Made by a program: the position numbers and the translations under genes
In this document: piece by piece, positions 39,504 through 40,279 of the stretch
Position numbering within the stretch: position 1 is the stretch's first letter
How the letters are laid out: every line of letters starts with the position of its first letter
Source: Escherichia coli
GTDB taxonomy: Bacteria > Pseudomonadota > Gammaproteobacteria > Enterobacterales > Enterobacteriaceae
Length of the DNA: 64,000 nucleotides
NCBI RefSeq assembly: GCF_003334355.1
Contig: NZ_QOWP01000002.1
Reading direction: 5' to 3' (one strand)
Notes under the pieces: model-generated
Databases searched by the model: none
Told to the model about the DNA's origin: nothing
Seen by the model: only the letters and a program-made list of their open reading frames with translations

Positions 39504-39745
39504 AAATAAATTTCCTTAAAGTTCACTAACTTATGATGTAGTGAGCTTTTTATACCCATAAAATGTACTATTGGTACTTTACATTAATGAACTTTAAGTA
39601 CATCATAAGCCCATAGACGAACGGCGCGTCTTTAAACCATGCGTCGGGAGCGCGGCGGGTTCAGGATGAACGGCAATGCTGCTCACTACAAAAGAACATT
39701 TCCATAACCGGAGGGTTATTGAAGTGTTTTTGTTAGGAGGTTTAA

Positions 39746-40279
39746 GTGGATCTTACTCAAGTGTCTGTAAGGGAGATTCTTCATTACAATCCTGTGAGTG
39801 GTGACTTTTATTGGAAGCCGAGAGCAAAGCATTTGTTTGCGGATAACAGAGCTGCCTTGACGTGGAACAAGAAGTATCCAGGTAAAAAGGCTGGCTCACC
39901 TGACAACAAGGGTTATCTGAGAATAAATATTGGAGGTAAAAAATTTAAGTCTCACAGACTTGCATGGCTTTACGTGCATGGCTACTGGCCTGATGTGATT
40001 GATCACATAAACGGCGTTAAGGATGACAACAGAATCTCCAATTTAAGAAGCGTTTCTTTCAAAGAGAATATGAAAAACATGCCTTTAAAATCATCTTCAT
40101 CAACTGGAGTTACAGGTGTTGAAGCAAGAAAAGAGCATGGGTTTTATGTTGCATCGATAACTGTGGATGGAAAACGAAAATACCTAGGCTCATTCAAACT
40201 TTTAGATGATGCCAAACAAGCAAGGAAAGAAGCCAATGCACTATATGGCTTTCATGAAAATCATGGACGGAGCCAGTAA
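39746..40279 (+). CDS. HNH endonuclease with AP2-like DNA-binding domain (177 aa), first gene downstream of cI
   Basis: AGGAGG RBS + GTG start; motifs HRLAWLYVHGYWPDVIDHINGVKDDNRISNLR (HNH) and GVTGVEARKEHGFYVASITVDGKRKYLGSF (AP2-like). Confidence 0.85.
   Translation: MDLTQVSVREILHYNPVSGDFYWKPRAKHLFADNRAALTWNKKYPGKKAGSPDNKGYLRINIGGKKFKSHRLAWLYVHGYWPDVIDHINGVKDDNRISNLRSVSFKENMKNMPLKSSSSTGVTGVEARKEHGFYVASITVDGKRKYLGSFKLLDDAKQARKEANALYGFHENHGRSQ

What the first reader, a model, noticed from the sequence alone, without database searches (positions are those of the whole stretch)
39504..40279. HNH-AP2 endonuclease is the first pL gene; no recognisable N antiterminator although tR2-like and tR' terminators are present
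Downstream of cI, where lambda has N and P22 has gene 24, the first gene is a GTG-initiated HNH endonuclease with an AP2-like domain. None of the small early-left ORFs has an arginine-rich N-like N-terminus. Yet a tR2-like terminator (35618-35648) and a lambda-type Q/pR'/tR' block are present. Either antitermination is done by an unrecognised factor or cis-acting RNA (HK022 put-like), or the endonuclease insertion displaced N.
Basis: partly seen in the sequence, partly recalled or inferred. Interest (0 to 1): 0.55.

Follow-up and report, generated by a model that had tools for sequence, protein, structure and literature searches.

The report
HK022-type put RNA antitermination, no N
This prophage needs no N protein because it carries exact copies of phage HK022's two 'put' RNA elements, which make RNA polymerase ignore terminators unaided; the nuclease gene is a mobile cassette in the variable slot after the left-hand element, so the case is ordinary.

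Summary
An HNH endonuclease gene (GTG 39746-40279) is the first gene after pL, and no functional N or Nun is encoded anywhere in the window.

The explanation is already known biology. Window 38026-39688 is 99.6% identical to the phage HK022 immunity region. It contains putL (39613-39686, +) and putR (38468-38405, -), both identical to HK022's over the structured RNA. These RNAs bind the RNA polymerase beta' zinc-binding domain and make it terminator-resistant without any phage protein.

Homology to HK022 stops just after putL, where HK022 has nun. Here there is a terminator-like hairpin, then the HNH cassette (~39734-40273). After it comes a dead 3' remnant of a P22 gp24 / mEpX2-type N gene (40275-40409, in-frame TAG at 40317). 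That remnant lacks the arginine-rich motif.

The same putL-HNH-N' joint occurs in Salmonella phage UPF_BP1 and in 6 of 5426 complete E. coli genomes. Other put phages carry nun or unrelated genes in this slot.

The rest of the prophage is P22-like and sits at argW. Novelty is low.

The parts
39613..39686 (+). putL antiterminator RNA. +1 of the pL transcript is 39613 and the last paired base, C72, is 39684.
   Evidence: Identical to HK022 putL from A3 to C72; position 74 is C instead of U. The numbering was checked against every residue named in the cryo-EM paper PMC9378689. The -10-like AACCAT at +23..+28 (39635-39640) is present. HK75 and O276 annotate the same sequence as putL.
38405..38468 (-). 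putR antiterminator RNA, between cro and cII
   Evidence: Identical to HK022 putR. It corresponds to the HK75 'putR site' annotation. It starts about 273 nt downstream of the inferred pR start (~38741), matching the ~270 nt stated in PMC9378689.
39578..39606 (+). pL promoter (-35 TTTACA, -10 CATCAT). oL operators are at about 39542-39556, 39564-39578 and 39588-39602.
   Evidence: Promoter scan. Positions transferred from the annotations of X16093 and HM173637 through the 99.6% alignment.
38748..38775 (-). pR promoter (TTGACT-16-CATAAT)
   Evidence: Best promoter match in the region, 10 of 12. Coincides with the pR annotated in X16093.
38796..39503 (+). cI repressor, HK022 type
   Evidence: Lies within the 99.6% identical HK022 block and corresponds to the HK022 CI CDS. 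phrog_4 / phrog_6201.
38486..38716 (-). cro, HK022 type
38068..38364 (-). cII, HK022 type
   Evidence: phrog_191.
39692..39734 (+). 17-bp hairpin followed by a U-run (terminator-like or processing site), between putL and the HNH ribosome-binding site
   Evidence: MFE -19.5 kcal/mol, z = -3.56, 0 of 200 shuffles as good. Shared with E. coli 01_3327, which has a different first gene. Function not established.
39746..40279 (+). HNH homing-type endonuclease gene. The cassette spans about 39734-40273, including the AGGAGG ribosome-binding site at 39735-39740.
   Evidence: Pfam HNH_3, phrog_99, PADLOC 'homing endonuclease', I-HmuI 1U3E. 96.6% aa identity to the UPF_BP1 HNH. Cassette edges come from alignments with 01_3327 (left) and mEpX2 N (right).
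40275..40409 (+). Dead 3' remnant of an N-like antiterminator gene (P22 gp24 / mEpX2 N type). In-frame TAG at 40317-40319; no start codon after it.
   Evidence: tblastn: mEpX2 N residues 44-87 align at 88.6% identity, E=1e-20. phrog_271 'anti-termination protein N-like', E=2e-7. The TAG is CAG in mEpX2 and UPF_BP1.
41285..41350 (+). Two tandem intrinsic terminators (tL) upstream of the cIII-like gene, which pL transcription must read through
   Evidence: Terminator scan. Fold -21 kcal/mol, z = -3.3. The window region containing them aligns at 88.6% with the HK75 stretch that carries its two annotated terminators.
35624..35658 (-). tR2-like intrinsic terminator after the DnaB-like replication gene, which pR transcription must read through to reach nin genes and Q
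   Evidence: z = -3.7.
31225..31848 (-). Lambda-type Q late antiterminator. The pR'/qut/tR' leader lies at 30550-31224.
   Evidence: phrog_127. The leader is 97.9% identical to lambda J02459 44494-45195.

Best explanation
The prophage (37.5 kb, P22-like virion genes, integrated at argW) carries the HK022 immunity module. Early antitermination is done by the two cis-acting put RNAs, not by a protein.

Proposed sequence of events (mechanism taken from HK022, inferred here):
1. On induction, RNA polymerase starting at pL transcribes putL as the first 74 nt.
2. Polymerase starting at pR transcribes putR about 270 nt downstream.
3. Each nascent RNA folds into a two-stem V-shaped structure and binds the beta' zinc-binding domain of the polymerase that made it.
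4. That polymerase stays terminator-resistant for kilobases. It should therefore read through the hairpin at 39692-39734, the tL pair at 41285-41350 and the tR2-like terminator at 35658-35634.
5. Late genes are then switched on by a lambda-type Q at pR'/tR'.

The HNH gene is a free-standing homing-type endonuclease cassette. It lies in the variable slot just downstream of putL, where HK022 has nun, and it plays no part in antitermination. The adjoining N fragment is debris from a recombination between a put-type immunity module and an N-type P22-like early-left arm. Loss of the N arginine-rich half is tolerated because put needs no phage factor.
For: Shown by tool results:
- Window 38026-39688 is 99.6% identical to HK022.
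- putL and putR are identical to HK022's.
- Positions relative to pL and pR are as published.
- Across 12 distinct put sequences from 13 loci, all paired positions I reconstructed from PMC9378689 hold. This includes its five named non-canonical pairs. Compensatory changes occur at 3-19, 4-18, 5-17, 14-30, 37-71 and 40-67.
- No N ARM, no Nun and no boxA.
- The N remnant carries a stop codon.
- Terminators lie downstream of both promoters.
- An isolated phage, UPF_BP1, has the same putL-HNH-N' joint and putR.
- Among put phages the slot holds nun, HNH, an N' peptide, phrog_13686 or phrog_7374.

From the literature: put acts without phage proteins, on intrinsic and Rho-dependent terminators, over 10 kb or more, through the beta' zinc-binding domain (PMC9378689).

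Inferred: that put is active in this prophage, and the order of the recombination events.
Against: - No functional data exist for this prophage.
- The sequence just downstream of putL differs from HK022. The characterised pause 21 nt after stem II is therefore not conserved, and position 74 is C rather than U.
- MFE folding of putL or putR alone is not better than shuffled sequence (z = -0.06 to +0.83). Support for the structure therefore rests on identity to the solved RNA and on covariation, not on thermodynamics.
- Rfam has no matching family.
Confidence: 0.9

Rival explanations
1. An unrecognised protein antiterminator is encoded among the small early-left ORFs (40413-40637, 40627-40989, 40986-41189) and replaces N.
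For: These ORFs belong to PHROG families of unknown function (phrog_5305, 1273, 2201), so a role cannot be strictly excluded.
Against: - None has an arginine-rich motif.
- The ORF directly after the remnant has a homologue directly downstream of an intact N in mEpX2 (gp40), and window DNA from about 40398 on matches early-left regions of several other phages annotated with N. It is therefore not an N substitute.
- Complete put sites already account for antitermination.
Confidence: 0.03
2. The prophage is defective. Insertion of the HNH gene destroyed N, early transcription stops at the first terminators, and the element is a decaying cryptic prophage.
For: N is truncated and carries a nonsense codon. 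The arrangement is rare, in 6 of 5426 complete E. coli genomes.
Against: - Both put sites are intact and identical to the functional HK022 ones.
- The immunity region, replication genes, Q, the lysis genes and the att repeats look intact.
- The deposited phage UPF_BP1 has the same joint.
- The same module recurs in different mosaic backgrounds.
Confidence: 0.05
3. The HNH protein itself takes part in transcription control, as a Nun-like excluder or N-like factor acting through its AP2-like DNA-binding tail.
For: It occupies the position of nun/N. A weak AP2 hint exists (E=0.14).
Against: - It is a typical member of a very large family of free-standing phage HNH endonucleases: 3460 phage records match, and the next-best after UPF_BP1 are about 47% identical, in phages of unrelated hosts.
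- It has an intact HNH_3 motif and I-HmuI similarity.
- It has no ARM and no similarity to Nun.
Confidence: 0.02

Closest known systems
Phage HK022 putL/putR antiterminator RNAs (King et al. 1996; cryo-EM structure in Hwang et al. 2022, PMC9378689)
   Same: Identical sequence over the structured RNA. Same positions after pL and pR. Same cI/cro/cII/operators (99.6% identity). No N protein.
   Different: The gene after putL is an HNH endonuclease instead of nun. The leader after position 73 is unrelated. The rest of the genome is a P22-like podovirus, not the HK97-like siphovirus HK022.
Lambda N / P22 gp24 / phage 21 N with nut (boxA-boxB) sites
   Same: Same genomic job and position. A 44-codon C-terminal remnant of a gp24/mEpX2-type N is still present at 40275-40409.
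   Different: No arginine-rich N-terminus, no boxA/boxB, a nonsense codon, and no start codon. It is not a functional member.
HK022 Nun transcription-termination (exclusion) factor
   Same: Occupies the same slot directly downstream of putL in HK022, HK75 and O276.
   Different: No Nun-like sequence anywhere in the window.
Salmonella phage UPF_BP1 (KX776161) and the E. coli prophages in CUVET21-PYO5, LWY24 and NRZ14408
   Same: The same putL-hairpin-HNH-N' joint at 97-99% identity, and the same putR.
   Different: UPF_BP1 has a different repressor, and its N' reading frame is still open (58 aa). Downstream early-left genes differ between hosts.
I-HmuI (PDB 1U3E) and other free-standing or intron-encoded HNH homing endonucleases of phages
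   Same: HNH_3 catalytic motif. A compact ORF-only cassette with its own ribosome-binding site. Presence/absence polymorphism between otherwise homologous flanks.
   Different: Only about 27 bits of similarity to I-HmuI. Not intron-encoded. Target site unknown.

Membership tests
HK022-type put antiterminator RNA | ~70-nt RNA with the put sequence | tested here: met
   putL 39613-39686 and putR 38468-38405 are identical to HK022's over the paired region.
HK022-type put antiterminator RNA | putL immediately after the pL start; putR about 270 nt after the pR start, between cro and cII | tested here: met
   The pL -10 ends at 39606 and putL +1 is 39613. The pR -10 ends at 38748 and putR starts at 38468, about 273 nt from the inferred start.
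HK022-type put antiterminator RNA | Two-stem structure with the published canonical and non-canonical pairs, supported by covariation | tested here: met
   Manual alignment of 12 distinct putL/putR sequences. A9-G35, G12-U32, G42-U65, G43-A64 and C44-A63 are invariant, and six pairs show compensatory changes. RNAalifold recovered the 3-7/15-19 helix with 3 covarying pairs.
HK022-type put antiterminator RNA | -10-like NANNAT at +23..+28 of putL, absent from putR | tested here: met
   AACCAT at 39635-39640. putR lacks this segment (criterion from PMC9378689).
HK022-type put antiterminator RNA | Terminator read-through that depends on the RNAP beta' zinc-binding domain and on no phage protein | not testable with these tools
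   Needs reporter fusions and rpoC mutant hosts.
Lambda N / P22 gp24 antiterminator with nut sites | N-terminal arginine-rich motif that binds boxB | tested here: not met
   Six-frame ARM scan and tblastn with two N proteins: only residues 44-87 of mEpX2 N are matched.
Lambda N / P22 gp24 antiterminator with nut sites | boxA/boxB nut sites downstream of pL and pR | tested here: not met
   No boxA-like 12-mer with 3 or fewer mismatches on the right strand in 39613-39745 or 38365-38485. boxB was not searched for separately; both leaders are occupied by put instead.
Lambda N / P22 gp24 antiterminator with nut sites | Intact open reading frame | tested here: not met
   TAG at 40317-40319. No ATG, GTG or TTG in frame after it.
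HK022 Nun | Sequence similarity to Nun (phrog_5632) | tested here: not met
   tblastn with HK022 and HK75 Nun: best hits E >= 0.008, elsewhere in the window and unrelated.
HNH homing endonuclease (HNH_3, I-HmuI-like) | HNH catalytic motif | tested here: met
   Pfam HNH_3 E=4.4e-15, residues 70-109. Aligns to I-HmuI.
HNH homing endonuclease (HNH_3, I-HmuI-like) | AP2-type DNA-binding domain at the C-terminus | tested here: inconclusive
   Not reported for the whole protein. E=0.14, 12.9 bits, for the C-terminal 66 aa alone.
HNH homing endonuclease (HNH_3, I-HmuI-like) | Mobile cassette: presence/absence between homologous flanks | tested here: met
   The left flank (putL + hairpin) occurs without the HNH in E. 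coli 01_3327. The right flank (N 3' end) occurs without it in mEpX2, APC_JM3.2 and PEC122. No allele with both flanks joined and empty was found.
HNH homing endonuclease (HNH_3, I-HmuI-like) | Site-specific cleavage of the HNH-less allele | not testable with these tools
   Needs biochemistry or co-infection crosses.

The most novel reading that the evidence does not exclude
The slot directly after putL may be a dedicated competition slot, and the HNH endonuclease there may be a weapon rather than a passenger. Under this reading it cuts the N/nut-type or nun-type allele of co-infecting or superinfecting lambdoid phages and copies itself, and perhaps the linked put module, into them. Such an N-destroying homing event would be viable only because put makes N dispensable. 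Separately, the long hairpin that follows putL in three unrelated leader types might be a conserved gate or processing site for expression of whatever gene sits in the slot.
Probability: 0.12. Interest if true: 0.5.

Novelty: already known. Interest (0 to 1): 0.2.

Why it matters
The missing N is not a mystery, and it does not point to a new antitermination factor. This is the textbook exception, HK022 put RNA, carried on a transplanted immunity module.

Three modest points are worth keeping:
- Rfam has no matching family, and MFE folding does not flag the element. Automated annotation will therefore keep reporting such prophages as 'N-less'.
- The put module moves between siphovirus (HK022-like) and podovirus (P22-like) backgrounds, leaving N debris behind. 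This is a clear example of a protein-independent cis element replacing a protein-dependent system by recombination.
- The position right after putL is a hot spot for cargo genes (nun, HNH, unknowns).

Tried and rejected
- Rfam at gathering thresholds found only tRNA-Arg, with no put or nut family.
- Single-sequence MFE folding of putL and putR gave z-scores near zero. This says nothing here, because the real fold contains a triplex and non-canonical pairs.
- MAFFT plus RNAalifold on putL and putR together misplaced the indel and recovered only the first helix. I therefore aligned by hand and counted pairs in a script.
- NCBIfam gave nothing for the HNH or the small ORFs.
- PADLOC gave only 'homing endonuclease' for the HNH and nothing for the other slot genes or Nun. 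There is thus no support for a known defence system.
- King 2011 (J Bacteriol 193:5784), on put-like RNAs in other phages, is not in the held library. Claims about it are limited to its citation in PMC9378689.
- One literature search failed for lack of a slot.
- I looked for an 'empty' allele in which the hairpin leader joins directly to N'. None was found among the phage and E. coli hits.
- The 42-aa ORF at 39676-39804, overlapping putL stem II, was dismissed as spurious.
- The off-frame arginine-rich stretches at 42298 and 42914 lie in alternative frames of longer ORFs and were dismissed.

Full report
**Context.** The window is an Escherichia-type chromosome segment.
- A tRNA-Arg(CCT) gene (argW) lies at 7776-7850.
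- A 16-bp direct repeat, CTGCAGGGGACACCAT, occurs at 7836-7851 and again at 45271-45286. It delimits a prophage of about 37.5 kb.
- An integrase-sized ORF (7976-9169) sits at one end. An excisionase-family gene (44997-45197) sits at the other.
- The late half, 7851-32800, is 95-97% identical in large blocks to P22-like podoviruses: phiv205-1, Kapi1, CUS-3 and HK620.
- The early-right operon is on the - strand: cro 38486-38716, cII 38068-38364, an O-like gene, a DnaB-like gene 35684-37060, then nin genes and Q 31225-31848.
- cI (38796-39503) and the early-left operon are on the + strand.

**Checking the observation.**
- The first credible gene after pL is the GTG-initiated 177-aa ORF 39746-40279, with AGGAGG 5 nt upstream.
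- It matches Pfam HNH_3 (E=4.4e-15), phrog_99 (E=5e-66) and PADLOC 'homing endonuclease'. By sequence it resembles the solved homing endonuclease I-HmuI, 1U3E (E=3.6e-5).
- The AP2 label is only a hint: Pfam AP2 E=0.14 on the C-terminal 66 residues.
- A six-frame scan of 39504-41600 for arginine-rich 15-mers found nothing.
- tblastn with mEpX2 N, phage 21 N, and HK022 and HK75 Nun found no N-terminal half and no Nun anywhere in the 64 kb.
- No boxA-like site lies in either early leader.
A tR2-like one is at 35658-35634 (-). Two are in tandem at 41285-41302 and 41323-41342 (+), ahead of the cIII-like gene.
- The Q-S intergenic block is 97.9% identical to lambda's pR'/qut/tR' region.

**What it is.**
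- megablast against phage records showed that window 38026-39688 is 99.6% identical to phage HK022 (AF069308, X16093). This block covers cII, cro, oR/pR, cI and oL/pL.
- HK022 is the classical lambdoid phage that has no N. Its early antitermination is done by two cis-acting RNAs, putL and putR (PMC9378689).
- Alignments show that both elements are present in the window and identical to HK022's.
- I numbered putL from the residues named in the cryo-EM paper: A3-G7 pairing with C15-U19, A9-G35, G12-U32, U28, G42-U65, G43-A64, C44-A63, U68 and C72. On that numbering +1 is window 39613 and C72 is 39684. Every named residue fits.
- The only difference from HK022 up to position 74 is U74 to C, which lies beyond the last paired base.
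- The -10-like AACCAT at +23..+28 is present.
- putR runs 38468 to 38405 on the - strand. It starts about 273 nt after the inferred pR start, as published (~270 nt).

**Structure support.**
- I collected 12 distinct putL/putR sequences from 13 loci: HK022, HK75, UPF_BP1, APC_JM3.2, phiEt88, PDP110P2, the window and several E. coli prophages.
- All five non-canonical pairs reported by cryo-EM are invariant.
- Six Watson-Crick pairs show compensatory double changes: 3-19, 4-18, 5-17, 14-30, 37-71 and 40-67. RNAalifold independently recovered the 3-7/15-19 helix with three covarying pairs.
- Rfam has no matching family, and single-sequence folding is uninformative. This is why the element is invisible to routine pipelines.

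**The slot after putL.**
- Identity to HK022 ends at 39688, four bases after C72. HK022, HK75 and O276 continue with a leader and nun.
- The window continues with a 17-bp hairpin plus U-run at 39692-39734 (dG -19.5 kcal/mol, z = -3.6), and then the HNH gene.
- The same putL-hairpin-HNH sequence (98%) is in Salmonella phage UPF_BP1. It is also in 6 of 5426 complete E. coli genomes, in otherwise different mosaic backgrounds.
- E. coli 01_3327 has putL and the hairpin but a different first gene, phrog_7374. This places the left edge of the HNH cassette at about 39734, just before its ribosome-binding site.
- Other put phages carry phrog_13686 proteins (phiEt88, an O111 prophage) or only a 27-aa N-derived peptide (APC_JM3.2, PEC122) in this position.
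- The position is therefore a variable cargo slot. The HNH is a compact, ORF-only mobile cassette of a very widespread phage family: 3460 phage records match, and after UPF_BP1 the nearest are about 47% identical, in phages of unrelated hosts.

**The N remnant.**
- Immediately after the HNH stop codon, window 40275-40406 encodes the equivalent of residues 44-87 of the mEpX2 N-like protein (P22 gp24 type). Identity is 88.6%, E=1e-20; the segment hits phrog_271 at E=2e-7.
- The arginine-rich N-terminal 43 residues are gone.
- The codon that is CAG in mEpX2 and UPF_BP1 is TAG here (40317-40319), and no start codon follows in frame. The remnant is therefore dead.
- DNA downstream of the remnant, from about 40398, is shared at 93-99% with the early-left regions of several phages that have an intact N: phage 21, mEpX2, ECP1 and phiv205-1.
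- The simplest history (inference) is recombination between a put-type immunity module and the early-left arm of an N-type P22-like phage, with the HNH cassette at the joint. Losing the RNA-binding half of N was harmless because put needs no phage protein.

**Mechanism (known for HK022, inferred here).**
1. After repressor inactivation, polymerase leaving pL makes putL first. Polymerase leaving pR makes putR after cro.
2. Each RNA folds and clamps onto the beta' zinc-binding domain next to the RNA exit channel.
3. This holds the enzyme in a non-swivelled, pause- and terminator-resistant state that persists for 10 kb or more (PMC9378689).
4. That should carry transcription through the post-putL hairpin, the HNH gene and the tL pair into cIII, erf and the rest of the early-left arm. 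On the other side it should carry transcription through the tR2-like terminator to the nin genes and Q.
5. Q then acts at the lambda-type pR'/tR'.
6. The HNH protein is not needed for any of this.

**Rivals.**
- A hidden protein antiterminator among the small ORFs is unlikely. None has an arginine-rich motif, the first of them has a homologue directly downstream of intact N in mEpX2, and downstream DNA is shared with other N-bearing phages.
- A defective prophage is unlikely. Both put sites are intact, the modules look complete, and UPF_BP1 shares the joint.
- A regulatory role for the HNH protein has no support.

**Verdict.**
- The biology is already known, since the sequence is identical to the characterised element.
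- What remains mildly interesting: a homing-type nuclease sits where HK022 keeps its exclusion gene nun; the N debris documents replacement of an N/nut system by put in a P22-like phage; and a long hairpin directly follows putL in three unrelated leader types, with untested function.

Noticed in passing
window 39692-39734 (+); L001 3168-3210; L011 3072-3116: A long hairpin begins 6-8 nt after putL in three unrelated leader sequences: the window / E. coli 01_3327 type (z -3.6 / -2.3), the HK022 type (z -1.85) and the phiEt88 type (z -2.5). Those of the window and HK022 are followed by a U-run. It could be an attenuator or terminator that only put-modified polymerase passes. It could also be an RNase III-type processing site like the lambda N leader.
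   Followed up: partly
L007 (APC_JM3.2) ~2290-2375; L008 (PEC122) 2658-2741; L003 (UPF_BP1) 3807-3983: Put-carrying phages that lack N still keep the last 27-58 codons of an N gene as an open frame. In APC_JM3.2 and PEC122 a fresh AAGGAGG + TTG start has been created for a 27-aa peptide, which PGAP names 'transcriptional antitermination N peptide'. The frame may be retained for translational coupling to the next gene, whose start overlaps the N stop. In the window the frame is broken by TAG.
   Followed up: partly
window 7836-7851 and 45271-45286; 7976-9169; 44997-45197: Prophage ends: a 16-bp att core, CTGCAGGGGACACCAT, at the 3' end of argW and again next to a dsdC-like LysR gene. The integrase-sized ORF and the 66-aa excisionase-family gene lie at opposite ends of the prophage. 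From memory this is a KplE1/HK620/Sf6-type recombination module with a TorI-like excisionase.
   Followed up: partly
window 38092-38119 (+): The strongest terminator-like hairpin of the region (12 bp, followed by TTTTTTCTTT) lies on the + strand inside the 3' end of cII. This is the position and orientation of the lambda oop antisense RNA terminator.
   Followed up: no
window 41369-41541: Between two blocks shared with HK022 (41201-41368 and 41542-42699), the HK022 cIII-kil segment is replaced. The window has a different cIII allele (41375-41545, phrog_550), and no kil ORF was recognised.
   Followed up: no
window 4001-6000 and 9001-11000: Two low-GC stretches (0.34-0.38, against about 0.50 around them). 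One is outside the prophage, upstream of argW. The other is just inside it, after the integrase-sized ORF, and is probably cargo or O-antigen-modification genes.
   Followed up: no
L015 (E. coli Z1323CEC0009) 1113-3430: In one E. coli genome an IS100 (IS21 family) element has inserted into the same HNH gene and truncated its 5' end. HK022 itself has IS903 just downstream of nun. The slot after putL seems to accumulate mobile DNA.
   Followed up: no
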